A stretch of 64,000 nt of DNA from an uncultured Acidobacteriota bacterium (lineage in GTDB: Bacteria > Acidobacteriota > Vicinamibacteria > Vicinamibacterales > Fen-181). Below the pieces are notes generated by a model. It saw only the letters and a list, made by a program, of their open reading frames with translations, was not told the DNA's origin and ran no database searches. Location: assembly GCA_963813585.1 (NCBI GenBank), contig CAWEZL010000001.1:118056-182055 (forward strand), given 5' to 3'. Positions 1,856-51,867 of the stretch are shown here, in pieces. Both the position numbers and the translations under genes were made by a program. Position 1 is the first letter of the stretch. The number at the start of each line of letters is the position of its first letter.

Positions 1856-2425
1856 TCACCGCGCCGGGCCGCGCCCGGGCCCGGGACGACGGCCACCCTG
1901 CCACGCGGACGTCAACTGCCGGTCGATCCGCGCGTCCATGAGCGTCATCATGGCTTCGGCCTCTTTCGCGGTCAAGCGACCGGCGGCCACCGCTTCGTCG
2001 AGCCGCGCCTTCCGCGCGGTCAGCGCCGCCTGCTTCACGTCGGCCTCCGACTTGCCGGCGGCCTCGGCGATCTGTGCGAACGTCTTGCCCTCGCCGAGCG
2101 ACTTGACCACCGCCGCCCGCTCCTGCCCCGTCACCTGCGCCGTCACGTCCACCAGCGACTGGCCGCCGCGGCCGAACGCCATGCCGGCGCCGTCGCGCAT
2201 CCCGCGGCCGCGCATCCCGGGCCCGCGCATCCCGGGCCCGCGGCGCCTCTGCCCGGTCCCGGCGTGATCGCACACGCCGTCGCCGTCTGCGTCCACGAAG
2301 TGCGGGCACGCCGCCGTCTGCCCCGACTGCGGTCGCACCTGCTGCCCCTGCTTCTGCTGCGCCTGCGCATAGCCGGCTGCCGCGAGGCCGACTACGGCGA
2401 TTCCCACCAGGATGGCCTGCTTCAT
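1856..2425 (-). CDS. secreted/periplasmic Met- and Gly-rich protein, putative metal-binding partner of the downstream sigma54 two-component system (ZraP/CpxP-like position)
   Basis: AGGAGG RBS 8 nt upstream of ATG(MKQAILVGIAVVGLAAAGYAQA). Cleavable signal peptide. CPHFVDADGDGVCDH and GPGMRGPGMRGRGMRDGAGM repeats. Lies immediately downstream of the NtrC-type regulator on the same strand. Confidence 0.7.
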   Translation of the reverse strand: MKQAILVGIAVVGLAAAGYAQAQQKQGQQVRPQSGQTAACPHFVDADGDGVCDHAGTGQRRRGPGMRGPGMRGRGMRDGAGMAFGRGGQSLVDVTAQVTGQERAAVVKSLGEGKTFAQIAEAAGKSEADVKQAALTARKARLDEAVAAGRLTAKEAEAMMTLMDARIDRQLTSAWQGGRRPGPGRGPAR

Positions 2426-2464
2426 CGTCTGTTCCTCCTGAGTCGTCACGGTCTCCCCGTGACA

Positions 2465-2495
2465 CCCGAGGCAGGGTCAAGGTCGGTGCCAAACG
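2465..2495 (-). promoter_or_regulatory. candidate sigma54 (-24/-12) promoter for the Met-rich protein gene
   Basis: Minus-strand sequence TTGGCACcgaccTTGAC ~40-60 nt upstream of the start codon, with GG at -24 but TTGA rather than TTGC at -12. It is located directly after a sigma54 activator gene. An adjacent inverted repeat GTCACGGggagaCCGTGAC is present. Confidence 0.3.
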
Positions 2496-2512
2496 TCGCT
2501 GCGCGGACGTGC

Positions 2513-4033
2513 TCAGATAACGGCCGGAATCCGCTCGATCCCGCGCACGGCTCGTCTCCCGCCCACACGCGCGGCCGACCAGGAGGTCGAGAGATTCGAC
2601 CAAGTGGTCGAACCGCCCGCCCGCAGGGACGCCGGCCAATACTCGGCCGGCACGGACACCGGCCCTATCTGGCTGTCAGATGTCAGCTTGTACTTCTTCA
2701 ACTTGTAGCGAAGGTGCCGCTCGCTCATGCCCAAATCGCGGGCAGCCCGAGTCTGCACTCCCCCGGCCCGCTCGAGCGCCTCCACGATCAGCGACCGCTC
2801 GAACTCGGACACGCGCTCCACGAAGGTCGTGGCGGTCGAGGTCCCTCCCGCCGCGCCGGGCCGCGCCAGGTTCACCGGCAAATCGGCCGCCGTGATCGTG
2901 CTGCCGCGGGAGAGCACGACGGCGCGGTGCACCAGGTTCTCCAGCTCGCGGACGTTCCCCGGGTAGTGGTACTTCAACAGCAGGTCCATCGCCTCGCGCG
3001 ACACCTCCTTGCGGGGCGCCTGGTTCTCCTCGGCGAAGCGCTTCAGGAAGTGCTCGGCGAGCGCCGGGATGTCCTCGCGCCGCTCGCGCAGGGGCGGCAT
3101 CTCGACCGGCACGACGTTCAACCGGTAGTACAGGTCGTCGCGGAACTCGCCCCTGGCGACCATCCCCTCCAGGTCGCGGTTCGTGGCCGCGAGGACGCGG
3201 ACGTCGACGCGGAGCGTGCGCGTGCCCCCGAGCCGCTCGAACGCCTGCTCCTGCAGCACCCGCAGCAGCTTCACCTGCGTGCCCCTGGGCAGGTCGCCAA
3301 TCTCGTCGAGGAACAGCGATCCGCCGTCGGCCAGCTCGAAGCGTCCCCGGTGCTCGCGGTCGGCGCCGGTGAAGGCACCCCGCTCGTGGCCGAACAGCTC
3401 CGACTCGAGCAGCGTGTCGGGCAGCGCCGCGACGTTCACGGCCACCAGCGGCCCCTTCGCCCTGGGGCTGGCGTAGTGGATGGCCCGGGCCAGCAGCTCC
3501 TTGCCCGTGCCGCTCTCGCCGCGGATCAGGATGGTGGCCCGGCTCGCGGCCGCGCGCGCGGCGGTGTTGATCGCCTCGGCCATCCGGGCGTTCGCGGTCT
3601 CGAGGCCCGCCAGGCGGTGTCGCGACTCGAGCTGCCGCTTCAGCTCGCGGTTCTCCGCGACCAGCGCGCGGCGCTCGAGCGTCCGCGCGATCAGCACGTC
3701 CAGCTCGTCGAGGTCGATCGGCTTGGTCAGGTAATCGGCCGCGCCGCGCTTCATCGCGTCCACGGCGCTCGCCACCGTCCCGAAGGCGGTCATGACGACG
3801 ACCGGGACCTCGGGGTTGATGCGCCGGGCGCCCTCGAGCAGGTCGATCCCGCTCGCGCCCGGCATGCGCAGGTCCGTGAGGATCAGGTCGATCGTCCGCG
3901 CGCTCAGCTCCGCGAGCGCGTCCTCGACCGTGCCCGCCTGCACGACCTCGAACCCCCGCTTCCGGAGGAAGCCAGCCAGCACCGTCCGCTGCGCCGGCTC
4001 GTCGTCCACCATCAGGATCACCTGGTCAGGCAT
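2513..4033 (-). CDS. sigma54-dependent response regulator (NtrC/ZraR family: REC + AAA+ sigma54-interaction + Fis-type HTH)
   Basis: [13 protein letters not shown]... REC domain. [15 protein letters not shown] Walker [16 protein letters not shown] (GAFTGA motif). C-terminal HTH ...[19 protein letters not shown] plus a ~55 aa tail. The start overlaps the kinase stop. Confidence 0.9.
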
Positions 4034-5834
4034 CGGTCCCCCCGTCCACGTCCGCCGGCAGCCGGACCGTCATCGTGGTGCCGGCGCCCGGGGCCGATTC
4101 GACCTCGATGGTCCCGCCGTGCGCCGCCACGATCTGCTGCGTCACCGCGAGGCCAACGCCGGTGCCCTCGGGCTTGGTCGTGAAGTACAGGTCGAAGATC
4201 TTCGGCAGGTCGCCGGGCACGATGCCGCTGCCGGTGTCGCGCACCTCGATGGTGTGCCCCTTCGACCCGCTGCGGGCGGTCACCTGAACGCGGCCACCGG
4301 ACGGTGTGGCCTCGATCGCGTTGCGCACCAGGTTGTCGATGGCCTGCCGCAGCTGCCGCGCGTCGATCACGGCTTGTCGCGCGCCGGCGGTGTCGGCGTC
4401 GATCGACACCTCGTGGGCGCCCGCCATCGGCCGGGCGGCCTCCACGAGCCCCCGGATCTCGGCGCCGAGGTCGGTGGCGGCCGGTGCGAGGCGGGGCGGG
4501 CGCGCGAAGGCGAGGAACTGCTGGACGATCTCGTTGATGCGCCCGGTCTCGCCCTCCATGACCGCGAGCAGCTCGGCGGCCTCGACGCGGTCGGCCTCCG
4601 AGGCGGCGGCGGGGGTGAACTCGCGCCGGAGCCGCTGCGCGCTCATCGCGATGGCGTTGAGCGGGTTCCGCACTTCGTGCGCGACGGTCGACGCCAGCTC
4701 GCCCATCGCGCTCAGCCGGTCGCGCCGGCGGAGGGCCGCCTCCGCCCGCGCGTGCTTCTCGGTGAGCGTGCTGTACGCCTGGCGCAGCCAGATCGCGCCG
4801 AGCGCGAGGACCGACAGCAACAGGGCCGCGCCGAGCGACACGGCCATGCGCGTCATCATGCGGCGCTCGGCCGAGCGCACCTCGTCCATGCGCAGCCCGA
4901 GGCGCAGCACGCCGATCTGGCCCTGCCCGAGATCGAGCGGGGAGGACAGCTCGAGCACCGGCCGCCCCGCCACCTCGCGCTCGAGCTCCTCGACGGCCGC
5001 CGGGATCCCCGCCTCTCCGGTCGGCGGCCCCGGCAGCCCTTCCGGCAGCTGGCCGTGGGCGTGACGCACGCCGTCGCGATCCACGACCACGTAGGCGAGC
5101 TGCGGGGTGGTGGCGGCGATCGACTCGATCAGGCGGTCGAGCGACACCTGGCGGAGCAGGCTCTCGATCTCCGTCGCGTCCGCGTTGACGAGGATCGCTC
5201 CGCCGTTGGCGCGGCGGACCCCGGCGGCCACGCGCGAACCCCGCCGGCCGCCGGGGCGAAGCTCGCCGACGACTTCGCGCTCGCGGCCCGAGAGGATCGG
5301 CTCGATGAAGGTGCCGCCCGGACCGAGGCCCATCCCTGCCCCCTGCCCCATGCCCGGCCCGGGCCCCATGCCCGCGCCGGGTTCGATGCCCGCGCCCGGT
5401 TCGATGACGGCGCCCGGCTTCTGGCGTCGGCCAGCCGGCTGGCGCCTCCGCCCCATCGCGCCGGCGCGGCCCGCCTCGCGGCCCCCCTCGCGCGACCCGT
5501 CCGGGCCGAACACCACCACCCGGAACAGCTTGTTCCGTTCGGCCGTCTCGGCCAGGAACTCGCCCGTGAGGCTTCCCTTTCGATCGAGCTCGGCGAGCAG
5601 GCGGGCGTTGTCGAGCAGGCGCTCGGTTACCTGCGCCGAGGCGATGGTGCCGGCGGCCTCGTTCGACCGAGCGGCGGCGGCCACCGTCTGGCGCAGCGCG
5701 GCGCCCTGGCCGCGCAGCAACCCCAGGAGCTCGCGGCGCGTGGCGCTGGAGTCGAACCAGCCGACAAACACCAGGCCGGCCGCCGCGAGCAGCGTCGCCA
5801 CGACGATCCGCGCGGTGCTCAGGCTGTATGTCAT
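4026..5834 (-). CDS. sensor histidine kinase with periplasmic sensor domain containing Met/Gly-rich repeats
   Basis: ATG at 5834 (MTYSLSTARIVVATLLAAAGLVFVGWF, TM1). Periplasmic region contains GAGIEPGAGMGPGPGMGQGAGMGLGPGG. TM2. HisKA (STVAHEVRNPLNAI) and HATPase_c (GTGVGLAV...HGGTIEV). The longer ORF 4026..6296 is a fusion artefact with the upstream pepF remnant. Confidence 0.85.
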   Translation of the reverse strand: MTYSLSTARIVVATLLAAAGLVFVGWFDSSATRRELLGLLRGQGAALRQTVAAAARSNEAAGTIASAQVTERLLDNARLLAELDRKGSLTGEFLAETAERNKLFRVVVFGPDGSREGGREAGRAGAMGRRRQPAGRRQKPGAVIEPGAGIEPGAGMGPGPGMGQGAGMGLGPGGTFIEPILSGREREVVGELRPGGRRGSRVAAGVRRANGGAILVNADATEIESLLRQVSLDRLIESIAATTPQLAYVVVDRDGVRHAHGQLPEGLPGPPTGEAGIPAAVEELEREVAGRPVLELSSPLDLGQGQIGVLRLGLRMDEVRSAERRMMTRMAVSLGAALLLSVLALGAIWLRQAYSTLTEKHARAEAALRRRDRLSAMGELASTVAHEVRNPLNAIAMSAQRLRREFTPAAASEADRVEAAELLAVMEGETGRINEIVQQFLAFARPPRLAPAATDLGAEIRGLVEAARPMAGAHEVSIDADTAGARQAVIDARQLRQAIDNLVRNAIEATPSGGRVQVTARSGSKGHTIEVRDTGSGIVPGDLPKIFDLYFTTKPEGTGVGLAVTQQIVAAHGGTIEVESAPGAGTTMTVRLPADVDGGTDA

Positions 5835-17574: not shown

Positions 17575-17700
17575 ACCGCCACAACTTCGGGGCGGGGTGC
17601 AAGTCCCCACCGGCGGTAGAGCCCGCGAGCCCGCAAGGGCAGACCCGGTGTGACTCCGGGGCCGACAGTGACAGTCTGGATGGGAGGGGTTGGGGCTGGT
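17575..17700 (+). promoter_or_regulatory. FMN riboswitch (RFN element) preceding ribD
   Basis: Conserved RFN cores: cttcGGGGCgGGGTGcAAgTCCCcACCGGCGGTAgAGCCCGCGAGCC...AGGGCAGAcccGGTGtgActCCGGGGCCGACAGTgACAGTCTGGATGGGAGggG. Followed by a Gly/C-rich sequestering stem before ATG 17784. Confidence 0.85.
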
Positions 17701-17783: not shown

Positions 17784-18938
17784 ATGGACGAACCGACCTC
17801 CGACGACCGCCGGTTCATGCTCGAAGCGCTGGCCCTTGCCGCGCGGCCGGCGCGACGGCCGTGGCCCAACCCGCCCGTGGGCGCCGTCGTCGTCCGTGAC
17901 GGGGTCCTCGTCGGCCGCGGCGCGCATCACGGTGCCGGCACGCCCCACGCCGAGGCGATCGCGCTCGCCGAAGCGGGGCATCGCGCTCGCGGTGCGACCC
18001 TCTACTGCACACTCGAGCCGTGCAACCACGAGGGGCGCACGCCTCCGTGCGCTCCGGCGGTGATCGCGGCCGGGGTGTCGCGGCTGGTCGTCGCGATGCG
18101 AGACCCCAACCCGCGTGTGGCCGGCGGGGGGCTCGAGGTCGCCCGGTGCGCGGGCATCGAGATCACGCTGGGAGTCTGTGAGGAGGACGCACTCGACTTG
18201 GTGTGGCCGTTCGTCGTGACGCGAGCATTCGAGCGGCCGTTCGTCTGTCTCAAGACCGCGGCCTCGCTCGACGGCCGTTTCGCGCCGGCGGGCACCGCCC
18301 CGGGCGCCGGCCCCGTGTACCTGACGAGCCAGGAGGCGCGCCGGCAGGCGCACGAGTTGCGGCGCTGGTTCGACGTCGTCGTGGTGGGCTCGCGGACCGC
18401 GGCCATCGACCGGCCGCGCCTCGACGGCCGCCTCGCCACCGCCGGCGCGGCGTGCCCGCCCCAGGACCCGATCCCCGCCGTCATGACCGGGCACCTGGCC
18501 GAGCTTCCACCCTGGCCGGGGCGACCGCACCTGGCGCTGGTCGGCCGCGGCGTGCCCGCCGCGGCGGTTGACGCGGCGACGGCCGCCGGCGGCACGGTGA
18601 TCCCCTGCGATCAGGGCCCCTCGGGCCTCGAGCCGGCGTCGGTCGTGGCCAACCTGGCCCGGCTGGGGAAGTACTGCCTCCTGCTGGAGGGCGGGCCCTC
18701 GGTCGCCGCCGCGTTCCTCCAGGCCGGCCTCGTCGACCGGTGGATTCGTTACACGGCGCCCGTCGTCCTGGGGCGCGGAATCGGCTGGCCCGAGTGGGAG
18801 CAGCAGGGCGGCGGATTCACGCTGACGCGTGCGGGCGGCTGCGGGCGCGACGTGGTCACGGTGTGGGACCGGGTGTCGTTTGCCGACGCGTGCGCGAGGC
18901 TCGGCGGCAATCGGCAAGACGCCGCGGGAGGCCTCTGA
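17784..18938 (+). CDS. ribD: bifunctional diaminohydroxyphosphoribosylaminopyrimidine deaminase / 5-amino-6-(5-phosphoribosylamino)uracil reductase
   Basis: CMP/dCMP deaminase zinc motif HAEAIAL...CTLEPCNHEGRTPPC. C-terminal RibD reductase domain. Confidence 0.9.
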   Translation: MDEPTSDDRRFMLEALALAARPARRPWPNPPVGAVVVRDGVLVGRGAHHGAGTPHAEAIALAEAGHRARGATLYCTLEPCNHEGRTPPCAPAVIAAGVSRLVVAMRDPNPRVAGGGLEVARCAGIEITLGVCEEDALDLVWPFVVTRAFERPFVCLKTAASLDGRFAPAGTAPGAGPVYLTSQEARRQAHELRRWFDVVVVGSRTAAIDRPRLDGRLATAGAACPPQDPIPAVMTGHLAELPPWPGRPHLALVGRGVPAAAVDAATAAGGTVIPCDQGPSGLEPASVVANLARLGKYCLLLEGGPSVAAAFLQAGLVDRWIRYTAPVVLGRGIGWPEWEQQGGGFTLTRAGGCGRDVVTVWDRVSFADACARLGGNRQDAAGGL

Positions 18939-19612
18939 TGTTCACCGGGCTCGTTCGGGAGGTCGGCCGCGTGGCGCGGCTCGGACGCCGCGGCGCCGTG
19001 ACGACGATCGAAATCGACGCTCCGCTCGTCGCCCGGTCCCCGGATGGGCCCGCGCCCGACGTTGGCGACAGCATCGCGGTCAACGGCATCTGTTTGACGG
19101 TCGTGCGCGTGGCCGGCGCCCGCCTCTCGGTGGAGGCAACCACGGAGACGAAGCGGGTCACGACACTCGGCGACTGGACGGCCGGGAGCCTGGTGCACCT
19201 CGAGCCGTCGCTCCGCGCGGGCGACGCGCTGGGCGGGCACTTCGTGCTCGGACACGTGGATGGCACCGGGCGCCTGCTTCGGTTGGCGCGCCGGAACGGC
19301 ACGGCAGCGATGACCGTGAGCGTCCCCGAGGGGCTGGCCAGGCTCCTGCTGCCCAAGGGGTCGGTCGCCGTTGACGGCGTCAGCCTGACGCTGGACGAGG
19401 GGCCGTTCCGGAACCGCTTCACGGTGACGCTGATCCCGCACACGCTCCGCTCGACGCGGTTCGCCGGCCTCACCGCCGGCACCCGCCTGAACCTCGAGCT
19501 GGACGTGCTTGCCAAGGCCGCCGAGCGGCGCGAGACAGGGCCGCCGCTCACCGTGGCGGCACTGCGGACACGAGGGTGGACCCGATCGATCGGGCCGGGG
19601 GACGGACGATGA
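18938..19612 (+). CDS. ribE: riboflavin synthase alpha subunit
   Basis: MFTGLVREVGRV... with duplicated lumazine-binding repeats (GDSIAVNGICLTV / GSVAVDGVSLTL). TGATG overlap with ribD. Confidence 0.85.
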   Translation: MFTGLVREVGRVARLGRRGAVTTIEIDAPLVARSPDGPAPDVGDSIAVNGICLTVVRVAGARLSVEATTETKRVTTLGDWTAGSLVHLEPSLRAGDALGGHFVLGHVDGTGRLLRLARRNGTAAMTVSVPEGLARLLLPKGSVAVDGVSLTLDEGPFRNRFTVTLIPHTLRSTRFAGLTAGTRLNLELDVLAKAAERRETGPPLTVAALRTRGWTRSIGPGDGR

Positions 19613-20820
19613 CAGGCACCTTGCTGGACTCGATCGACACCGCACTCGACCGGCTGCGGCGCGGGGAGATCGTCATCGTGGTGGACGACGAGGATCGCGA
19701 GAACGAGGGCGACCTCGTCCTGGCGGCCGAGAAGGTGACGCCCGAGGCGATCAACTTTTTCGCGCGGCACGGGCGCGGACTGGTCTGCTTCTCCACAACC
19801 GGGGAACGGCTGCGGGCGCTGGATCTCGGCCCGATGGTCGAGCGCAACACCGCCGCGCTCGGCACGTCGTTCACCGTGTCGGTCGATGCCGCCACGGGCG
19901 TCGGGTCGGGCATCTCCGCGTTCGATCGCGCGAGGACCGTGCGGGTCCTGATCGATCCGGCCGCCACCCCGGCCGATCTCGTGCGGCCCGGCCACGTCTT
20001 CCCGCTCGAGGCCCGGCCGGGGGGCGTGCTGCGCCGCAGCGGCCACACCGAGGCGGTCGTCGACCTGTGCCGCCTCGCCGGGCTCTACCCGGCCGGCATC
20101 CTCTGCGAGATCATGGACGACGACGGGTCGATGGCGAGGCTGCCGAAGCTGCGGTCCATCGCCGACACCTTCGGGCTTGCGCTCGTGTCGATTGCCGACC
20201 TGATCGCCTACCGCCGCCGCCACGAGCAACTGGTGCGCCGGGAGGCCGAGGTGGACCTGCCCACGCGCCACGGCCACTTCACGCTCGTCGCTTACGCGAC
20301 CACCGTCGATGCGAGCGTCCACCTCGCGCTGGTGAAGGGGCAGCTGTCGCCCGGCGAACCGACACTGGTGCGCGTCCACTCCGAGTGCCTGACGGGCGAC
20401 GTCTTCCACTCGCTGCGCTGCGACTGCGGCGAGCAGATGGAGGCGGCCCTCGACGCCATCGAGGCGAACGGCAGCGGCGTGTTCCTCTACATGCGGCAGG
20501 AGGGACGCGGCATCGGCCTCGTGAACAAGCTGAAGGCGTACGGACTGCAGGAGGCGGGCAGCGACACCGTCGAGGCGAACCTCCGCCTCGGGTTCGCCGA
20601 CGACCTGCGCGACTACGGGCTGGGCGCGCAGATCCTCAGGGACCTCGGCGTGGGGCGAATGGCGCTCATCACCAACAACCCGCGGAAGATCGTCGGCCTC
20701 GAGGGCTATGGGCTCGAGGTGGTCAGCCGCGTACCGCTCGAGGTGAGCCCCAACGCGAGCAACCTGGCGTACCTGCGGACCAAGAAGTCCCGGCTGGGAC
20801 ACCTGCTGGAGCGCGTGTGA
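19609..20820 (+). CDS. ribBA: bifunctional 3,4-dihydroxy-2-butanone-4-phosphate synthase / GTP cyclohydrolase II
   Basis: DHBP synthase N-domain (VVDDEDRENEGDLV). GTP cyclohydrolase II CxxC...C motif (VHSECLTGDVFHSLRCDCG). ATGA overlap with ribE. Confidence 0.9.
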   Translation: MTGTLLDSIDTALDRLRRGEIVIVVDDEDRENEGDLVLAAEKVTPEAINFFARHGRGLVCFSTTGERLRALDLGPMVERNTAALGTSFTVSVDAATGVGSGISAFDRARTVRVLIDPAATPADLVRPGHVFPLEARPGGVLRRSGHTEAVVDLCRLAGLYPAGILCEIMDDDGSMARLPKLRSIADTFGLALVSIADLIAYRRRHEQLVRREAEVDLPTRHGHFTLVAYATTVDASVHLALVKGQLSPGEPTLVRVHSECLTGDVFHSLRCDCGEQMEAALDAIEANGSGVFLYMRQEGRGIGLVNKLKAYGLQEAGSDTVEANLRLGFADDLRDYGLGAQILRDLGVGRMALITNNPRKIVGLEGYGLEVVSRVPLEVSPNASNLAYLRTKKSRLGHLLERV

Positions 20821-21444: not shown

Positions 21445-22866
21445 CTACTGCCCGAGCGTTCCCCCCACCCACGCCAGGTTCACGCGGGCGACGCGGTAGT
21501 CGCGTTGGGCGCGCGCGAGGTTCGCCCGCGCGGACGACAGGTTCAGCTCGGCGTCCTGCACCTCGAGGCGCGTCTTCACGCCCAGCTCGAACCCCTTTTC
21601 CGCGAGGAAGAGCAGCTTCTCGGCCTGGGCCACCGTCCCGCCGAGGGCTCCCGCGATCTCGGAGGCCTCGCGCACGGCGTTCAGTGCGGTGCGCACCTCG
21701 AGGCGGATCCCGTCGCGCAGCTTCAGCTCGTCGAAGTTCAAGCGCAGCAGGTCGCTCTGCGCCTGCGCCACCTGCCCCTTCGTCCGCCAGCCGTCGAACA
21801 GCGGGATGCTGGCGACCAACCCGGCATTCCAGGCCGTGCCGCGCGCCGAGATGGTCTTGAGACCGAGGCGCCGCTGGCCCCAGCTCGCCGAGAAATCGAC
21901 CCTCGGCTTGCTGGCCGCCTTGGCAATGGTGACCAGCTCGCCGTAGATTCCCTTCGTGCCGACAATCTCGGAAATCTCCGGGCGATGCTCGATGGCGCTC
22001 GCCAGCACCTGCTCGTACGGCGGCGCCGCCTCGATGGTGGTGGCGAGCGAGCCGGCCGCGTCCACCTCGCCCGGCTCGGCAAGCAGGAATCGCAGCTGCT
22101 CGCGCGCCATCCGCACGCCGTTCTCGGCGCGGATGACGGCCGGCCGGCCGTTCTCGACGGCGACCTGCGCCGCCAGCACGTCGTAGTCGGTGGCGGTGCC
22201 GGCGGACTGCCGCTTCAGCGTCTCGTCGAGGTGCCGCTGGCGCTGCTCGAGGTCCTGCCGCGCGATGGCGGCCAGCTCGCGCGCCACCAGCACGTCGTAG
22301 AACGCCGTGGTGACGTCCTTCTCGACGGCCTGCTGGAAGCGCCGCAACTGCTGGTTGGCGACGCCGAACCCGAGCTTCGCCGCCCGGACGGCCGCGCCCA
22401 CCTGGCCCCACGTGAAGACGACCTGGTTGACCGAGAACCCCGCCACCCCCACGTCCTGCCGACCGCCGAAGATGTCGCCGATGCCCGTTTCACCGGAGTT
22501 CCCCTCGTCGGCGGGCATGAAGTCCTTGAAGAGCTTCGTCATCGAGTTGTCGAACGTGCGCGTGTTGCTGACGCTGAGCGTCGCGCGCGGGAGGGCCGCC
22601 CCCCGCTCCTGCACGTAGCGGCCCCGCACCCAGTTCTGGTACTCCCGCGCTTTCTGGATGTCGCGGTTCTGCTCGGCGGCGACGGCGAGCGCCTGCTCGA
22701 GGGTCAGCGTCTTCACCGGGACGCCCGCCTCGGCCTGCGCGGCTTGCGCCGCCTGCGCCGCCTGCTGCCCCAGCGCGACAGCCGGCCGCTCCGCCGCCAG
22801 CATCCCCTCGCGCAGCGTCGAGACGGACTGGCCGAACGCGTCGGCCGGCCCCGCGAACAGGGCCGC
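21445..22866 (-). CDS. TolC-family outer membrane efflux protein (OMF); no stop codon separates it from the upstream RND gene
   Basis: Signal-peptide-like TTALVVAALFAGPADAFG. Two tandem OEP repeats. Possible own start is an in-frame GTG ~22866 after AAGAAGGGG. Lies in the same frame as the RND ORF, giving a 1511-aa continuous ORF 21445..25980. Confidence 0.7.
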   Translation of the reverse strand, partial: AALFAGPADAFGQSVSTLREGMLAAERPAVALGQQAAQAAQAAQAEAGVPVKTLTLEQALAVAAEQNRDIQKAREYQNWVRGRYVQERGAALPRATLSVSNTRTFDNSMTKLFKDFMPADEGNSGETGIGDIFGGRQDVGVAGFSVNQVVFTWGQVGAAVRAAKLGFGVANQQLRRFQQAVEKDVTTAFYDVLVARELAAIARQDLEQRQRHLDETLKRQSAGTATDYDVLAAQVAVENGRPAVIRAENGVRMAREQLRFLLAEPGEVDAAGSLATTIEAAPPYEQVLASAIEHRPEISEIVGTKGIYGELVTIAKAASKPRVDFSASWGQRRLGLKTISARGTAWNAGLVASIPLFDGWRTKGQVAQAQSDLLRLNFDELKLRDGIRLEVRTALNAVREASEIAGALGGTVAQAEKLLFLAEKGFELGVKTRLEVQDAELNLSSARANLARAQRDYRVARVNLAWVGGTLGQ

Positions 22867-25800
22867 GACCACGAGCGCCGTCGTCACGACGGCCGCCGTC
22901 CCCTTCTTGCGGTTCCGCCCGAGCAGCCAGGCGGTGATGTCGTCGAGGATCGAGTACACGACCGGGACGACGATCAGCGTCAGCAGTGTCGAGGTGACCA
23001 GGCCCCCGACGACCGCGCGGGCCATCGGCGCCCGGAACTCGGCGCCCTCGCCGATGGCGAAGAACAGCGGCAGCATGCCGAAGATCATCGCCGTCGTCGT
23101 CATCAGGATCGGCCGCAGCCGCGTGCGGCCCGCGAGGATCAGCGCCTCGCGCCGCTCGTGCCCCCGCGATCGCAGCACCTTCGTGTAGTCCACCAGCAGG
23201 ATTGCGTTCTTGGTCACCAGCCCCATCAGCATGATGAGGCCGATGAGCGACATGATGTTGATCGTGTCGCCGGTCAGCACCAGCGTGCCCGCCATGCCGA
23301 CGACCGCGAGCGGCAGCGAGAACATGATCGCCAGCGGATCCATGAACGATTCGAACTGCGCCGCCAGGATCAGGTAGACGAGGATGATTGCCAGCATCAG
23401 CGCCTCGGCCATGTAGCCGAACGACTCGACCATCATCTCCGTGTCGCCGCCGATCAGCACCTTGTAGCCGGGCCCGAGCTGGATCTTGTCCGCCGCCGCC
23501 TGGGCCAGCGAGCTGGCCGTGCCGAGCGGCAGCTTGTCGAGGTTCGCGTCCACCGTCACCTGCCGCGACAGGTCGCGGCGGTTGATCTCGGCCGGGGAGG
23601 TGGCCCGCGTGAACGTGACCAGGTCGCTGAGGGGCACCAGCGCCACGCCCTGCGCGGAAGGCACGGTCACCTTGAGGTCGCCGATCTGCGACACGCGCGT
23701 CCGCAGCGCCTCGGGGAGCCGGACCCGGACCGCGACCCCCTCGCCCTCCTCGTCCTCGTAGGTGGTGACGGCCTGGCCACCCACGAGCACGCCGACGGTG
23801 TTGGCGACGGCGGCGCTGCCCAGGCCGGTGGCGGCGGCGCGCTCGCGGTCCACGATCAGGCGGTACTCGGGGAGGTCCAGCTCCATCGTCGCTTCGATGT
23901 CCACGATCCCGGGGATCGAGTAGAGTTCCTGCTTCACCCGCGCCGCGTACTGCTTCAGCGTGGTGATGTCCTCTCCCTGGAGCACGACCTGCAGCGGCTT
24001 CTGGAAGGTGTCGACCTCCTCCTGCACCGAGAGGACGACGCCTGGGATCCGCTGGAGGCGCAGCCGCACGTCGTGAACGAAGTCCTTGAGGCCGCGGTCG
24101 CGCTCCTCCTTCGGCACGAGCTTCACGAACACCGTGGCGTCTCGCACCGTGTCGGAATCGCCGGCGCCGATCGAGGCGTACGTGTACCGCACCTCCTTGA
24201 ACTCGGCGAAGGCGCCGAGCACGTCCTCGAGGCGCCCCCGTGTCTCGGCGATCGACGATCCCGGCGCGCTCTTGAACTTCACGACGAACTCGCCCTGGTC
24301 CATGGGGGTCATGAATTCCGTCTGCAGGAGGGTGAAGACCCCCAGCCCGGCGACGAACGCCAGGATCGCGACGGCCGACACGACGAACCGGTGGTCGAGG
24401 GACCACCCGATCACCTTCTTGTAGCCGTTCGCCATCCGCTCGAACCACTCGTTGAACCGGTCGAGCGCGCGCTGCAGGATGTTGCGGCGCCCCTTCCGCT
24501 CGATGTCGGGATCGATCCAGCGCGACGAGAGCATCGGGTCGAGCGTGAACGAGACGAACAGCGAGACGAGCACGGCGAACGCCACGGTCAGCCCGAACTG
24601 GTAGAAGAAGCGCCCGACGACCCCCTTCATGAAGGCGACCGGCACGAAGACGGCGATGATCGACATCGACGTCGCGAGCACCGCCAGGCCGATCTCCGCC
24701 GTCCCCTTCCGGGCCGCCTCGAAGTGGTCTTCGCCCCGCTCGAGGTGCCTGACGATGTTCTCGCGCACGACGATCGCGTCGTCGATGAGCAGGCCGATGG
24801 CCAGCGACAGCGCCATCAGCGTCAGCGAGTTCAGCGTCATGCCCAGGAAGTGCATGACGATGAACGACGAGATGACCGAGATCGGGAGCGTCAGCCCCGT
24901 GATGACCGTCGAACGCCAGGAGTTCAGGAAGCAGAAGACGATGAGGATCGTCAGCAGGCCGCCGAGGATCAGCGTGTTCTGGACGTCGTGCACCGCCTCG
25001 CGGATGAACACCGAGGTGTCGCGCACCACCTGCAGATCCGTCCCCGCCGGCATCTCGGCGCGCAGGAGATCGAGCTCGGCGCGCACGCCGTCCACCACCC
25101 CGACGGTGTTGGCCTTCGTCTGCTTGGTGACGTCGATCGCCACCGCGGGCTGGCCGTCGATGAGCGCCAGCGACCGCGGCTCGGCGATCGTGTCGGTGAT
25201 CGTCGCCACGTCCGCGAGCCGGATCGGCTGCCCCGCCCGGCGGGCGATCACCATGCTCGCGTAGCCGTCCGTGCTGGCCGGCTTCCCGGAGATGCGCAGC
25301 GGCAGCTCGGTGCCGGCGCTCGTCAGGCGGCCGAGCGGCGTGTTCACGTTCTCCGTGGCCAGCCCCGCGACGACCTCGTCCACCCCCATCCCGAGGGCCG
25401 ACAGGCGGGCGGGGTCGAGGTCCACCGCCACCTCGCGCGTCGAGTCGCCCACCAGCTTCGCGCGCGCCACCCCGGGCACCCCTTCGAGCCGGCGCTTCAC
25501 CTTCCGGTCGGCCAGCGTCGTCAGCTCCCGCGCCGAGAGGGTCTTCGAGCGGACCGCGACCGAGATCACCGGCATCGCCTGGAAGTCGAACTTCTGGATG
25601 ACGGGATCGGCCATGTTCGCCGGCAGGTCGCGGCGGATGGCGTTGATCTTCGCGCGGGCCTCCTGCGAGGCGTCGTTGATCTTCACCTCGAGGTCGAACT
25701 CGACGATGATCATCGCCAGGCCTTCGCGCGAGATCGAGTTGACGTGCTTCACCCCGGAGATCGGGTTCAGCGCCTCCTCGATCTTCTTGCTCACCTCGCG

Positions 25801-25980
25801 CTCGACCGTCTCGGGCGAGGCGCCCGGCAGCTCCGCGACGACGGAGAGCACCGGGATTTCCACCTCCGGCATCATGTCCACCGGCAGTCGGCGCCAGGAG
25901 AAGATGCCGAGCGTGACGAGCGTCAGCATCATCACCGTCGCGACGACGGGCCGCTTGATCGACAGGTTCGAGAGGAACAT
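22867..25980 (-). CDS. RND efflux transporter permease (AcrB/MexB/CzcA superfamily), reading through into the OMF gene
   Basis: MFLSNLSIKRPVVATVMMLTLV... 12-TM RND with two large periplasmic loops. The C-terminus ...VPVVYSILDDITAWLLGRNRKK continues in frame into GTAAVVTTALVV... with no stop. Confidence 0.8.
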
Positions 25981-25982
25981 CG

Positions 25983-27107
25983 CTACGCCCCCTGACCCTT
26001 GGCGGGGGCAATCCGGTCGCCCGGCTTCAGCGCAAACGACCCGCGCGTGACCACCTGCTCACCGGCTTGCAGGCCCTCGACGACCTCGACCATCGTCGCC
26101 GTCGCGGCGCCGAACCTGACCTGGCGCCGGTCGGCGGTGTCGCCGCGGACCACGTACACGTCGGCCGTCCCCTGCTCGACGTTCCAGTTCTGGAGCGCCT
26201 CGCGCGGCACCTGCAGGACCCCGGTGCGGCTGGCCACGAGGATGCGCCCCTTCACGAACGCGCCCCCCTTCAGCTGGCCGTCGGTGTTCCGTACCTCGGC
26301 CACCACCATCGCCGAGCGGCTGGCCGGGTCGATCGTCGGGTTGATGAACATCACCCTGCCGGTGAACGTGCGGCCCGGCAGCGCGTCGGTCGTGAACTCG
26401 AGCGGCTGGCCCACCTTCACCTGCGACAGGCGCGACGAGGGGACCGCGACGGTCAGGTCGAGCAGCCGGTTGTCCACGATGCGGAAGAGCGGCGTCGCGC
26501 CGCCCCCCATGTTCTCGACCCGGTCGCCCACGTTGACGCCACGGAGCGCGATGACGCCGTCCATCGGGGCCGCCAAAAACGACTTGGCGAGCCGCGCCTG
26601 CGCCGCCTGCACCTGGGCCCGCGCCGCCGCCGTGCCGGCCTCCGCGGCGTCCACGGCCGACTTCGCGTCGTCCAGGTTCTGCGGCGTGATCAGCCCGTAC
26701 TGCCGCAGCTGCTGCGCCCGCTCGTACTCGCGCCGCGCCCGCGTCTCGCTGACGCGCGCCTGCGCCTCCATCGCTTCGAGCGCCTTGATCCCGGCCTCCG
26801 TCTCGGCCGTGTCGAGCCGCGCCAGCCGGGCGCCCTTGCGCACCGGCACCCACTCGGTGACGTAGACGGCGTTGACGACGCCCGAAACCTCCGACTTCAC
26901 GTCGGCCGAGAACTTCGGCTCGAGCGAGCCGACCACCTCCACCGCGTCCTGGAGGTCGGTCGCCGCGACCGTCGCAACCCCAACCGCCACGGGCGGCTTG
27001 CCGGCCGCCGAAGCCGCAGGCTCCGACCCGGAACCACACCCCGCCGCGGCCGCGGCCGCAACGCCCACCGTCACGAGGAAGAGGACATGACGCCCGATCC
27101 GTCTCAT
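25983..27107 (-). CDS. efflux RND transporter periplasmic adaptor subunit (MFP/HlyD family lipoprotein)
   Basis: Lipobox ...AAAAAGC. Biotin-lipoyl-like, coiled-coil and beta-barrel segments. ATGA overlap with tetR. 2-nt gap to RND. Confidence 0.85.
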   Translation of the reverse strand: MRRIGRHVLFLVTVGVAAAAAAGCGSGSEPAASAAGKPPVAVGVATVAATDLQDAVEVVGSLEPKFSADVKSEVSGVVNAVYVTEWVPVRKGARLARLDTAETEAGIKALEAMEAQARVSETRARREYERAQQLRQYGLITPQNLDDAKSAVDAAEAGTAAARAQVQAAQARLAKSFLAAPMDGVIALRGVNVGDRVENMGGGATPLFRIVDNRLLDLTVAVPSSRLSQVKVGQPLEFTTDALPGRTFTGRVMFINPTIDPASRSAMVVAEVRNTDGQLKGGAFVKGRILVASRTGVLQVPREALQNWNVEQGTADVYVVRGDTADRRQVRFGAATATMVEVVEGLQAGEQVVTRGSFALKPGDRIAPAKGQGA

Positions 27108-27766
27108 GGTCTTTCGTCTCCTTGCTCCCGCCGTTCCCTGAACACGCCGTCGAACACCAGGTCGAGCACCCGGAGAAGCCGCTCGCGGCTCACCGGCTCG
27201 ATGTTCGGATGGAGATGCCGCGACGCCGCCGACCCGATGACGCCGATTACCGCCAGGGCGACGTCGGCCGGATCCACCGATCGGAGCTCCCCGGACGCCA
27301 TCCCCGCCTCGACGATGTTTCGGAGGGCCGCCTCGAGGCTGCGCTCGAACTCGATGATGTCGAAGTCGGGGGCGGTGCCGGCCGGGTCGTGAAACGCCCG
27401 GTGCACGACCTGGATGACCGGCACGTTTTCGGTGAAGAGACCGTAGAAGTCCTCGCAGAGGCTCGCCAGGCGCTCGCGCGTGGTCCCGGGCGCGTCGATC
27501 GCCCGGCTCGCGGTGCGCCGGAATTCTTCGAGGCCCTCGTGCAGGATGGCCAGGAGGACCCCCTCCTTGCTGCCGAAGTGATAGTAGAGCGCCGGCTTCG
27601 TGACACTGGCCAGCTCGACGATCTCCCGCACCGACGCCGCGGAATACCCCTTCTTGTTGAAGACCTGGACCGCCGCTCGCAGCAGCCGGCTTCGCGTGTG
27701 CTCGTCCTTTTCGGCCGGCGGCACGGAGGCCTGCAGGGGGAGCGAACCGTCCGGAAGCGTGTTCAC
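27104..27766 (-). CDS. TetR/AcrR family transcriptional regulator
   Basis: N-terminal TetR HTH RSRLLRAAVQVFNKKGYSAASVREIVELASVTKPALYYHFGSKEGVL. Confidence 0.9.
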   Translation of the reverse strand: MNTLPDGSLPLQASVPPAEKDEHTRSRLLRAAVQVFNKKGYSAASVREIVELASVTKPALYYHFGSKEGVLLAILHEGLEEFRRTASRAIDAPGTTRERLASLCEDFYGLFTENVPVIQVVHRAFHDPAGTAPDFDIIEFERSLEAALRNIVEAGMASGELRSVDPADVALAVIGVIGSAASRHLHPNIEPVSRERLLRVLDLVFDGVFRERREQGDERP

Positions 27767-27796
27767 AGCGGGAACTCCGAAATGGCGGGGGGCAAT

Positions 27797-27838
27797 ATAC
27801 CTACCGGTAGGAATATGCGCTACCTACCGGTCGGTAAA
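27797..27838. promoter_or_regulatory. two AT-richer palindromes (CCTACCGGTAGG; TACCGgtCGGTA) directly upstream of tetR: candidate TetR operators
   Basis: atACCTACCGGTAGGaatatgcgcTACCTACCGGTCGGTAaat lies 30-70 nt upstream of the tetR start, in the tetR/sucA divergent region. Confidence 0.4.
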
Positions 27839-27883
27839 TATAACAGACGAACTTCCGCCTCGACAAGTTCCCGCCCTTATTGC

Positions 27884-51777: not shown

Positions 51778-51867
51778 GGAGAGATGGCCGAGTGGTTGAA
51801 GGCGCACGCTTGGAAAGCGTGTGTAGGGGAAACTCTACCGAGGGTTCGAATCCCTCTCTCTCCGCCA
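51778..51867 (+). tRNA. tRNA-Ser (anticodon GGA)
   Basis: GGAGAGA acceptor stem. Anticodon arm CACGC-TTGGAAA-GCGTG. Long variable arm. T-arm GAGGGTTCGAATCCCTC. 3' GCCA encoded. Confidence 0.9.

What the first reader, a model, noticed from the sequence alone, without database searches (positions are those of the whole stretch)
21445..25980. RND permease and TolC-like OMF form one continuous 1511-codon ORF (no stop codon between them)
The RND C-terminus (…AWLLGRNRKK) runs in frame into the OMF signal peptide (GTAAVVTTALVVAALFAGPADA…). An RND-OMF polypeptide fusion is topologically implausible, since the RND C-terminus is cytoplasmic and the OMF must reach the outer membrane. Three explanations are possible: a lost stop codon from a base substitution or error; an internal reinitiation at the in-frame GTG after AAGAAGGGG; or a genuinely unusual arrangement.
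Basis: seen in the sequence. Interest (0 to 1): 0.55.

Follow-up and report, generated by a model that had tools for sequence, protein, structure and literature searches.

The report
Efflux pump and exit channel fused
The inner-membrane efflux pump and its outer-membrane exit channel really are encoded as one conserved 1511-codon gene here, and the channel's own export signal is kept at the joint, so the protein is most likely cut into its two usual parts after membrane insertion.

Summary
The minus-strand ORF 21445-25980 encodes a complete AcrB/MdtB-type RND permease (aa 1-~1020) running in frame into a complete TolC-type channel (aa ~1092-1511).

It is not an error. All 120 best database clusters are full-length fusions of 1465-1567 aa. 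Among 80 genome loci chosen by the channel part alone, 61 are fused in frame. These have 27 different linker lengths and no stop in 3786 linker codons.

More distant orthologues (Geobacter and relatives) have two genes joined by an ATGA start/stop overlap with a strong Shine-Dalgarno site.

Fused genes have lost the Shine-Dalgarno signal (background level). They keep a full signal-peptide layout: a basic RND tail, 17-28 uncharged residues, Pro/Gly, then small-x-small|Q.

Best explanation (about 0.7): the signal acts as a 13th transmembrane helix, which resolves the topology objection, and signal peptidase I releases the channel. Cleavage is inferred, not shown.

Similar fusions occur in Bacteroidota and Armatimonadota. 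I found no paper describing them.

The parts
27795..27866 (-). Promoter-like site (TTGTCG-18-TATATT, 27866..27837) overlapping two palindromes TACCTACCGGTAGG (27795-27816, 27821-27839). This is the probable TetR operator of the operon.
   Evidence: Pattern matches only; function is inferred.
27104..27766 (-). TetR-family regulator gene (220 aa, GTG start, GGAG 8 nt upstream). Its stop overlaps the next gene's start (ATGA).
   Evidence: Pfam TetR_N E 9.3e-18; sequence.
25983..27107 (-). Periplasmic adaptor (membrane fusion protein) gene, 374 aa, with AAGGAG 9 nt upstream of its ATG.
   Evidence: Pfam HlyD_D23 E 8.8e-28; sequence.
21445..25980 (-). Single ORF of 1511 codons plus stop: the RND permease-OMF fusion gene.
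22921..25980 (-). RND (HAE-1, MdtB/AcrB-like) permease part, aa 1-1020. The LIDDAIVV (TM4), TKNAILLVD (TM10) and RTRLRPILMTT (TM11) motifs are present.
   Evidence: Pfam ACR_tran aa 4-1012; PDB MdtB 9lyq_B E 3.6e-146 over aa 4-1022. The motifs are read from the translation; assigning them to the AcrB proton relay rests on my own knowledge.
22903..22920 (-). Basic cytoplasmic tail GRNRKK (aa 1021-1026), which serves as the n-region of the internal signal peptide.
   Evidence: Net positive tail (+1 to +6) in all 61 fused orthologues.
22900..22908 (-). AAGAAGGGG, a decayed relic of the Shine-Dalgarno site that precedes the separate OMF gene in unfused orthologues.
   Evidence: Window AAG GGG ACG GCG GCC GTC versus L072 AAG GGG ACG GTG GCA TGA. 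Anti-SD duplex energy is -7.9 here against a median of -14.25 in split loci and -7.4 in background.
22885..22887 (-). In-frame GTG (aa 1032), a possible minor internal start. Its product would begin MTTALVVAALFAGPADA with no basic residue.
   Evidence: It is not positionally conserved in L002.
22837..22902 (-). Internal signal peptide / predicted 13th transmembrane helix, GTAAVVTTALVVAALFAG-PADA (aa 1027-1048). The predicted signal peptidase I site lies after A1048 (ADA|FGQ).
   Evidence: 12-residue hydropathy 2.6. The family pattern is small-x-small|Q in 53/61 against 10.8 +/- 2.9 in shuffles, with Pro/Gly at -7..-4 in 47/53 and no Cys at +1. AF2 predicts a helix at aa 1031-1042 with low confidence. 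Cleavage is inferred.
22708..22836 (-). Ala/Gln-rich, poorly conserved linker (aa 1049-1091) between the predicted cleavage site and the first conserved OMF helix (LTLEQAL).
   Evidence: AF2 pLDDT is below 50 for aa 1040-1065. The total linker length varies from 28 to 88 codons among orthologues.
21448..22707 (-). TolC-type outer membrane factor domain (aa 1092-1511); stop codon at 21445-21447.
   Evidence: Pfam OEP x2; PDB TolC E 4.6e-16; AF2 model pLDDT 83.8 overall and above 90 in this part; Foldseek TolC 1ek9 TM-score 0.78 over 432 columns.

Best explanation
The gene is a functional, conserved polyprotein for two of the three parts of a tripartite RND efflux pump. It arose from an ancestral RND gene and OMF gene that were translationally coupled by an ATGA start/stop overlap, when a change at that overlap merged the two frames.

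The ribosome now makes one 1511-aa chain. The 12-helix RND part inserts with its C-terminal basic tail (GRNRKK) in the cytoplasm. The former OMF signal peptide (GTAAVVTTALVVAALFAG-PADA) then crosses the inner membrane as a 13th helix (N-in, C-out). The roughly 460-aa OMF part is threaded into the periplasm through the Sec machinery. Signal peptidase I cuts after ADA (A1048|F1049). The freed TolC-like protomer is assembled into the outer membrane in the normal way, and the RND subunit keeps the extra helix.

The likely benefit is obligatory 1:1 synthesis and co-targeting of pump and channel.

Shown here: the ORF, both complete domains, conservation of frame, the signal-peptide layout, loss of the internal ribosome-binding site, and the ancestral overlap. 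Inferred: membrane topology, cleavage, the fate of helix 13, and the benefit.
For: (1) Both domains are complete: ACR_tran aa 4-1012 plus OEP x2, MdtB E 3.6e-146, and a TolC fold with TM 0.78-0.79.
(2) The fusion is conserved. All 120 best clusters are 1465-1567 aa with both Pfam domains. Of 80 genome loci found with an OMF-only profile, 61 have RND and OMF in one frame with no stop.
(3) There is selection for frame continuity. In the 59 of these 61 loci where the first OMF helix could be located, there are 27 distinct linker lengths (28-88 codons). Stops in 3786 linker codons number 0 in frame, against 56 and 10 in the other two frames.
(4) The joint is a signal peptide. The tail has net charge +1 to +6. 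[AGS]x[AGS]Q follows the hydrophobic core in 53/61 loci, against 10.8 +/- 2.9 (maximum 20) in 1000 shuffles, and position -1 is A/G/S in 60/61. The uncharged stretch is 17-28 residues (median 21), Pro/Gly lies at -7..-4 in 47/53, and there is no lipobox Cys.
(5) Unfused orthologues have an ATGA/GTGA/TTGA overlap in 13 of 14 loci, and a strong SD in most of them (best anti-SD duplex at or below -12 kcal/mol in 11 of 14). The window aligns to that region codon by codon.
(6) The SD is lost in fused genes: median best anti-SD duplex -7.1 kcal/mol against -7.4 in background (p 0.78) and -14.25 in split loci (p 7e-7); the window is -7.9. Only 6/61 loci have an SD-like motif before an in-frame start that would leave a charged n-region, and 3 have no in-frame start at all.
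(7) Some fused orthologues have only 7-11 residues (2 in P0047) between the predicted cut and the first OMF helix. That is too short for an uncut tether.
(8) The same layout recurs in 28-31% identical fusions from Fibrella aquatilis (WP_207335468.1), Capsulimonadales and others.
Against: There is no protein-level evidence: cleavage, topology and the fate of helix 13 are inferred.

The window does have an in-frame GTG 12 nt after a relic AAGGGG that resembles the AGGGGG upstream of the real RND start. Some independent initiation therefore cannot be excluded. 40/61 fused loci have some in-frame start that could give a charged signal peptide, and the Thermoanaerobaculia clade has a conserved ATG in RRMAG.

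My cleavage-site calls come from simple rules, not a trained predictor. The loci are phylogenetically related, so counts are not independent events. A generic anti-SD sequence was assumed. AF2 confidence at the joint is low.

Signal peptidase cutting after a 12-helix transporter has, to my knowledge, a precedent only in the cytochrome b/c1 polyprotein FbcH. I cite that from memory and could not retrieve it.
Confidence: 0.7

Rival explanations
1. The OMF is made mainly by independent translation from the in-frame GTG (aa 1032) using the AAGAAGGGG motif as ribosome-binding site. On this view the read-through fusion is a tolerated by-product.
For: The motif is homologous to the true SD of split orthologues and resembles the AGGGGG before the real RND start. 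A GTG lies 12 nt downstream. 40/61 fused loci contain some usable in-frame start.
Against: SD strength in fused loci equals coding background, and the window's value is -7.9 kcal/mol against -14.25 in split loci. The GTG is not aligned with a GTG in the 92%-identical L002. The product would lack any basic n-region. Three fused loci have no in-frame start, and 21 have none that leaves a charged n-region. If initiation were independent, stops and frame-shifting indels in the tail would be tolerated, yet there are none in 59 loci with 27 linker lengths. Ribosomes that finish the RND part must read on in any case, so the fusion chain is made regardless.
Confidence: 0.12
2. The chain stays uncut. 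The RND and OMF remain covalently linked, with helix 13 in the inner membrane and the linker spanning the periplasm to an outer-membrane-inserted TolC domain.
For: The window's linker after the hydrophobic segment is 43 residues, flexible and low-complexity. A 1:1 covalent assembly is conceivable.
Against: The linker after the predicted site ranges from 7 to 52 residues (median 31) among orthologues, and is 2 in P0047. The N-terminus of a TolC protomer sits at the equatorial domain: the AF2 model starts with a short strand and then a ~36-residue helix rising to the barrel. By the known AcrAB-TolC geometry that is well over 100 A from the inner membrane (my own knowledge of PDB 1EK9 and 5NG5). 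The strong enrichment of small-x-small|Q with Pro/Gly upstream has no purpose without cleavage.
Confidence: 0.07
3. The missing stop is a sequencing or assembly error or a recent inactivating mutation, and the true genome has two genes.
For: Several related long-read contigs clearly carry frameshift errors (P0053, P0088, P0108, P0119; L082; L043). Long open frames are also common at 70% GC.
Against: The fusion is in the same frame in 61 loci from many projects and platforms, including SPAdes/MEGAHIT Illumina MAGs, and in all 120 best protein clusters. The split state is confined to distant lineages with a different, ATGA-overlap structure. The apparent stand-alone OMFs in the Acidobacteriota clade that I examined sit next to broken RND genes (L082 and L083), and in L083 the RND C-terminal half is still in frame with the OMF.
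Confidence: 0.01

Closest known systems
Tripartite RND efflux pumps of the HAE-1 family with a TolC-type channel (E. coli MdtABC-TolC, AcrAB-TolC)
   Same: The three components are the same: an adaptor (HlyD_D23), an RND permease (MdtB E 3.6e-146) and a TolC-fold channel (TM 0.78), in an operon with a TetR repressor.
   Different: Permease and channel are one ORF here. In the studied systems they are separate genes, and tolC is often unlinked. A large review of these pumps mentions fusions only for SecDF, MacB and ABC domains in its searchable text (the first 300,000 of its 747,799 characters).
Unfused orthologous operons in Desulfobacterota and relatives (Geobacter sp. AOG1 L075, Geomobilimonas luticola L078, Deltaproteobacteria CSP1-8 L061)
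   Same: Same gene order, 60-69% (RND) and 50-55% (OMF) identity, and the same RND tail sequence (...GKGTVA / ...KKGTAA).
   Different: In these the RND ends in TGA overlapping the OMF ATG (ATGA), preceded in most by a strong SD (at or below -12 kcal/mol in 11 of 14; about -14 to -15 in these three), and the OMF is in another frame. In the window the overlap is gone, the frames are merged and the SD has decayed.
FbcH of Bradyrhizobium japonicum, the cytochrome b / cytochrome c1 polyprotein split at an internal signal peptide (Thony-Meyer, James and Hennecke 1991, PNAS; from my own knowledge, not retrievable here)
   Same: A polytopic inner-membrane protein ending in the cytoplasm is followed in one ORF by the signal peptide of a periplasm-facing partner of the same complex. 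Processing yields two subunits in fixed stoichiometry.
   Different: The released part here is an outer-membrane beta-barrel/alpha-barrel channel that must still cross the periplasm, not an inner-membrane-anchored cytochrome. Processing of the RND-OMF chain is untested.
Other database RND-OMF fusions (Fibrella aquatilis WP_207335468.1, 1488 aa; Capsulimonadales MDX1935270.1, 1520 aa)
   Same: ACR_tran plus OEP x2 in one chain, with a basic / hydrophobic / small-x-small joint.
   Different: They are only 28-31% identical to the window protein over the region compared and come from other phyla, so probably separate fusion events. They are annotated merely as 'efflux RND transporter permease subunit'.

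Membership tests
RND permease, HAE-1 type (AcrB/MdtB) | Full-length match to the ACR_tran family model | tested here: met
   PF00873 aa 4-1012 of the protein, model positions 2-1020 of 1021, E 2.6e-268; MdtB 9lyq_B E 3.6e-146 and AcrB about 1e-91.
RND permease, HAE-1 type (AcrB/MdtB) | Proton-relay residues in TM4 (DD), TM10 (K) and TM11 (R, T) | tested here: met
   LIDDAIVV, TKNAILLVD and RTRLRPILMTT are present in the translation. Their equivalence to AcrB D407/D408/K940/R971/T978 rests on my own knowledge, not on a residue-level alignment made here.
RND permease, HAE-1 type (AcrB/MdtB) | Twelve transmembrane helices with both ends in the cytoplasm | not tested
   Only the last three helices were modelled. 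The topology is taken from solved homologues.
RND permease, HAE-1 type (AcrB/MdtB) | Encoded next to a periplasmic adaptor gene | tested here: met
   The HlyD_D23 protein gene at 25983-27107 ends 3 nt before the RND ATG.
Outer membrane factor, TolC type | Two OEP repeats forming a TolC-like protomer | tested here: met
   PF02321, 2 stretches, E 5.6e-49. The AF2 model matches TolC 1ek9 at TM 0.78 over 432 columns.
Outer membrane factor, TolC type | N-terminal Sec signal peptide with a signal peptidase I site and no lipobox | tested here: met
   The n-h-c layout is present but internal: RNRKK / GTAAVVTTALVVAALFAG / PADA|F. No Cys occurs at +1 in any fused orthologue. Rule-based; no trained predictor was available.
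Outer membrane factor, TolC type | Separate gene product with its own start codon | tested here: not met
   No stop and no conserved start or SD lie upstream of the OMF part.
Bacterial polyprotein split at an internal signal peptide (FbcH-like) | One conserved ORF for two subunits of one complex | tested here: met
Bacterial polyprotein split at an internal signal peptide (FbcH-like) | Internal signal peptide with a (-3,-1) site directly after a cytoplasmic end of the first subunit | tested here: met
   That the RND C-terminus is cytoplasmic is taken from AcrB structures.
Bacterial polyprotein split at an internal signal peptide (FbcH-like) | Two mature proteins demonstrated in the cell | not testable with these tools
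   Needs proteomics or immunoblotting.

The most novel reading that the evidence does not exclude
A large, recurrently evolved class of efflux pumps makes its inner-membrane transporter and its outer-membrane channel as a single precursor. Signal peptidase then cuts this precursor at an internal signal peptide. An outer-membrane protein would thus be delivered to the Sec translocon co-translationally on the back of a polytopic membrane protein, and the transporter would permanently keep the channel's signal peptide as a 13th helix. As far as I could find, this has not been described.
Probability: 0.55. Interest if true: 0.65.

Novelty: new variant of a known kind. Interest (0 to 1): 0.55.

Why it matters
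If the precursor is processed as proposed, it is a natural way to enforce 1:1 production of pump and exit duct. It would also be a rare bacterial polyprotein that is split by signal peptidase. And it would be a case in which an outer-membrane protein reaches the translocon co-translationally, whereas by my own recollection OMP precursors are usually exported post-translationally.

This offers a simple natural system for studying internal signal-peptide cleavage, OMF biogenesis and subunit stoichiometry in tripartite pumps.

Practically, annotation pipelines label these 1500-aa proteins only as 'RND permease'. Genome surveys that count OMF genes will therefore miss the channel in many Acidobacteriota and other soil bacteria.

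Tried and rejected
- A junction-centred protein search returned only hits of 700 aa or less, which looked like partial fusions. The listed hits were mostly fragments on short contigs, and none exceeded 700 aa (1.75 times the query length, possibly a length cap in the tool). The full-length query resolved this.
- Apparent stand-alone OMFs in the same clade were checked in their contigs. P0060 lies next to a fragmented RND gene in what looks like an error-prone assembly. For P0083, the RND has a frame break but its C-terminal half is still in frame with the OMF. Neither shows a clean, separately encoded OMF next to an intact RND.
- The conserved Met in the Thermoanaerobaculia tail (RRMAG) was considered as a retained start codon. 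It aligns with Trp of the RRWAG tails of unfused RND proteins and has no SD, so it is more likely part of the RND tail. This is not excluded.
- Eight literature searches for natural RND-OMF fusions and for the FbcH precedent found nothing usable. Absence from this library is not proof that the fusion is unpublished. TCDB and InterPro architecture tables could not be consulted.
- The AF2 model of aa 891-1511 gave no structured contact between the RND and OMF parts, and low confidence at the joint. It neither supports nor contradicts cleavage.
- An NJ tree of OMF parts suggests at least 3 fused/split changes. It is a rough identity-distance tree with midpoint rooting, so I use it only as a hint of recurrence.


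Full report
**Observation.** The minus strand carries one ORF from 25980 (ATG) to 21445 (stop), 1511 codons long. Pfam places a complete AcrB-type permease model on aa 4-1012 (E 2.6e-268) and two outer-membrane-efflux-protein repeats up to aa 1503. The joint reads ...VVYSILDDITAWLLGRNRKK GTAAVVTTALVVAALFAG PADA FGQSVS..., with in-frame GTG codons at aa 1032 and 1037 and AAGAAGGGG at 22908-22900. An open frame by itself is weak evidence in this roughly 70% GC DNA, where shadow ORFs of 1496 and 1173 aa overlap the same gene. The question was whether the continuity is conserved.

**Context.** The ORF is the last gene of a minus-strand operon. A TetR regulator lies at 27104-27766 and a periplasmic adaptor at 25983-27107; the regulator's stop overlaps the adaptor's start, and the adaptor's stop lies three bases before the permease ATG. 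Upstream is a promoter-like site overlapping two TACCTACCGGTAGG palindromes. The operon converges on a riboflavin operon that has an FMN riboswitch. The RND part is closest to MdtB among solved structures (E 3.6e-146). The C-terminal part matches TolC by sequence (E 4.6e-16). An AlphaFold model of aa 891-1511 (mean pLDDT 83.8) superposes on TolC at TM 0.78-0.79 over the whole TolC chain. Both halves look intact.

**Not an error.** The identical protein is called as one gene on Mb-size contigs. With the whole protein as query, all 120 best 90%-identity clusters are 1465-1567 aa, carry both Pfam domains and cover 96-100% of the query (one covers 68% in its best local alignment) at 67-100% identity. 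They come from NCBI, JGI, ENA and Logan assemblies.

To avoid selecting for fusions, I searched one genome per species with a profile of the OMF part only and then located the RND and OMF frames in each of the 80 loci. Sixty-one loci have both parts in one frame with no stop. Where a lineage is named they are Acidobacteriota (Vicinamibacterales, Thermoanaerobaculia, Terriglobia). They include an Illumina MAG at 92%/90% identity.

**Selection for frame continuity.** In the 59 of these 61 loci where the first OMF helix could be located, the linker between the end of RND helix 12 and that helix has 27 different lengths (28-88 codons). It contains 0 in-frame stops in 3786 codons, against 56 and 10 in the other two frames. 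Many indels have occurred, all in multiples of three, and no stop has been tolerated. That is the signature of selection for translation through the joint.

**Origin.** The more distant loci in the same search have two genes. These include Geobacter sp. AOG1, Geomobilimonas luticola, other Desulfobacterota and a Thermodesulfovibrionia MAG. In 13 of 14 the OMF start overlaps the RND stop as ATGA, GTGA or TTGA, and most have a strong Shine-Dalgarno sequence inside the RND tail (best anti-SD duplex at or below -12 kcal/mol in 11 of 14). The window aligns to this region codon by codon: L072 reads AAG GGG ACG GTG GCA TGA where the window reads AAG GGG ACG GCG GCC GTC GTG.

**How the OMF is made.** I measured the best pairing energy to a generic anti-SD sequence in the RND tail.
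- Split loci: median -14.25 kcal/mol.
- Fused loci: median -7.1 kcal/mol.
- Random coding pieces of the same genes: median -7.4 kcal/mol.
- Fused versus background, p = 0.78; split versus fused, p = 7e-7; the window is -7.9.

The internal ribosome-binding site has thus decayed in fused genes. Only 6 of 61 fused loci have an SD-like motif before an in-frame start that would leave a charged n-region. Twenty-one have no such start, and three have no in-frame ATG/GTG/TTG before the cleavage site at all. In the window the GTG at aa 1032 would give MTTALVVAALFAGPADA without a basic residue, and it does not align with a GTG in the closest relative. Independent initiation may contribute a little here, but it is not what selection maintains.

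**What the joint is.** In all 61 fused loci the RND tail is net positive (+1 to +6) and is followed by a strongly hydrophobic stretch (best 12-residue hydropathy 1.95-3.06). In 53 of 61 this is followed by [AGS]-x-[AGS] directly before Gln, against 10.8 +/- 2.9 (maximum 20) in 1000 composition-matched shuffles. Position -1 is A/G/S in 60 of 61. The uncharged stretch up to that site is 17-28 residues (median 21). Pro or Gly lies at -7 to -4 in 47 of 53, and Cys never follows the site. This is the n-h-c layout of a Sec signal peptide cut by signal peptidase I, with the RND tail supplying the n-region.

**Topology.** Placed after a transporter whose C-terminus is cytoplasmic (AcrB-family structures, my own knowledge), such a segment would insert N-in/C-out as a 13th helix and put the OMF part in the periplasm.

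**Cut or tethered.** The distance from the predicted site to the first conserved OMF helix is 43 residues in the window. It is only 7-11 in L040, L034, L039 and L074, and 2 in P0047. The model shows that the mature domain starts at the equatorial level, one short strand and a ~36-residue helix below the barrel. In assembled AcrAB-TolC that level is far more than 100 A from the inner membrane (my own knowledge of PDB 1EK9 and 5NG5). An uncut tether cannot work in those relatives and is marginal even here. Cleavage is therefore the most economical reading for the whole family. It remains an inference.

**Breadth.** An exhaustive search of 1.84 billion representatives found further full-length fusions at only 28-31% identity. 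They include a RefSeq protein of the cultured Bacteroidota species Fibrella aquatilis and one from Capsulimonadales. Pfam confirms ACR_tran plus two OEP repeats, and their joints have the same basic / hydrophobic / small-x-small layout. Within the present family, a rough tree of OMF parts needs at least three fused/split changes. The arrangement seems to have arisen repeatedly.

**What is known.** Sources name these proteins 'efflux RND transporter permease subunit', 'HAE1 family exporter' or 'RND transporter'. One MAG record says 'efflux pump, family, inner and outer membrane protein', so at least one annotation noted the fusion. Eight full-text searches, including a 2021 review of tripartite pumps (of which only the first 300,000 of 747,799 characters are held), found no description of natural RND-OMF fusions or their processing. 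The closest mechanistic precedent I know is the cytochrome b/c1 polyprotein FbcH of Bradyrhizobium japonicum. I could not retrieve that paper here.

**Verdict.** The feature is real, conserved and under selection. It is best explained as a polyprotein with an internal, cleavable signal peptide (confidence about 0.7). Rival readings are internal initiation as the main route (0.12), an uncut tether (0.07) and error (0.01). It is a new variant of a known kind of system, of moderate interest.

Noticed in passing
window 17579-17695 (+): An FMN riboswitch (RF00050, 103.6 bits) lies directly upstream of a riboflavin operon: ribD-like 17784-18938, then Lum_binding, ribBA 19576-20820 and DMRL synthase up to 21320. 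The operon converges on the efflux operon with a 124-bp gap.
   Followed up: partly
window 27795-27866 (-): Two near-identical palindromes TACCTACCGGTAGG, 23 nt apart, overlap a promoter-like TTGTCG-18-TATATT upstream of the TetR gene. This is probably the autoregulated operator of the efflux operon.
   Followed up: partly
window 21505-25995 (+) and 22490-26011 (-): Shadow ORFs of 1496 and 1173 aa overlap the RND-OMF gene in other frames. At about 70% GC, long open frames are not evidence of coding.
   Followed up: yes
window 22708-22836 (-), aa 1049-1091: An Ala/Gln-rich low-complexity stretch (QQAAQAAQAAQAEA) lies between the predicted cleavage site and the TolC domain. The closest relative, L002, carries a stretch about ten codons longer here, and the length varies widely in the family. 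Its role, if any, is unknown.
   Followed up: partly
L045-L068 (Thermoanaerobaculia loci), joint region: This clade has a longer conserved tail, RRMAGAKFEAHEAAKG, with a conserved ATG and no SD-like motif. It aligns with the RRWAG... tails of unfused RND proteins. Whether the ATG is used as a start is open.
   Followed up: partly
L043, L082; proteins P0053, P0088, P0108, P0119: Several long contigs from related MAG projects show frame breaks inside the RND or OMF part, giving fragmentary gene calls with garbled tails. These are probably long-read indel errors. They can mimic stand-alone OMF genes in protein databases.
   Followed up: partly
L083 945-5477: In an NCBI Vicinamibacterales MAG the RND part is broken near position 2400, and only the OMF part is annotated, as 'TolC family protein' from an internal Met. 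The C-terminal half of the RND is nevertheless still in frame with the OMF (ORF 2421-5477).
   Followed up: yes
window 51778-51864 (+): A tRNA gene (Rfam RF00005, 62.5 bits), unrelated to the finding.
   Followed up: no
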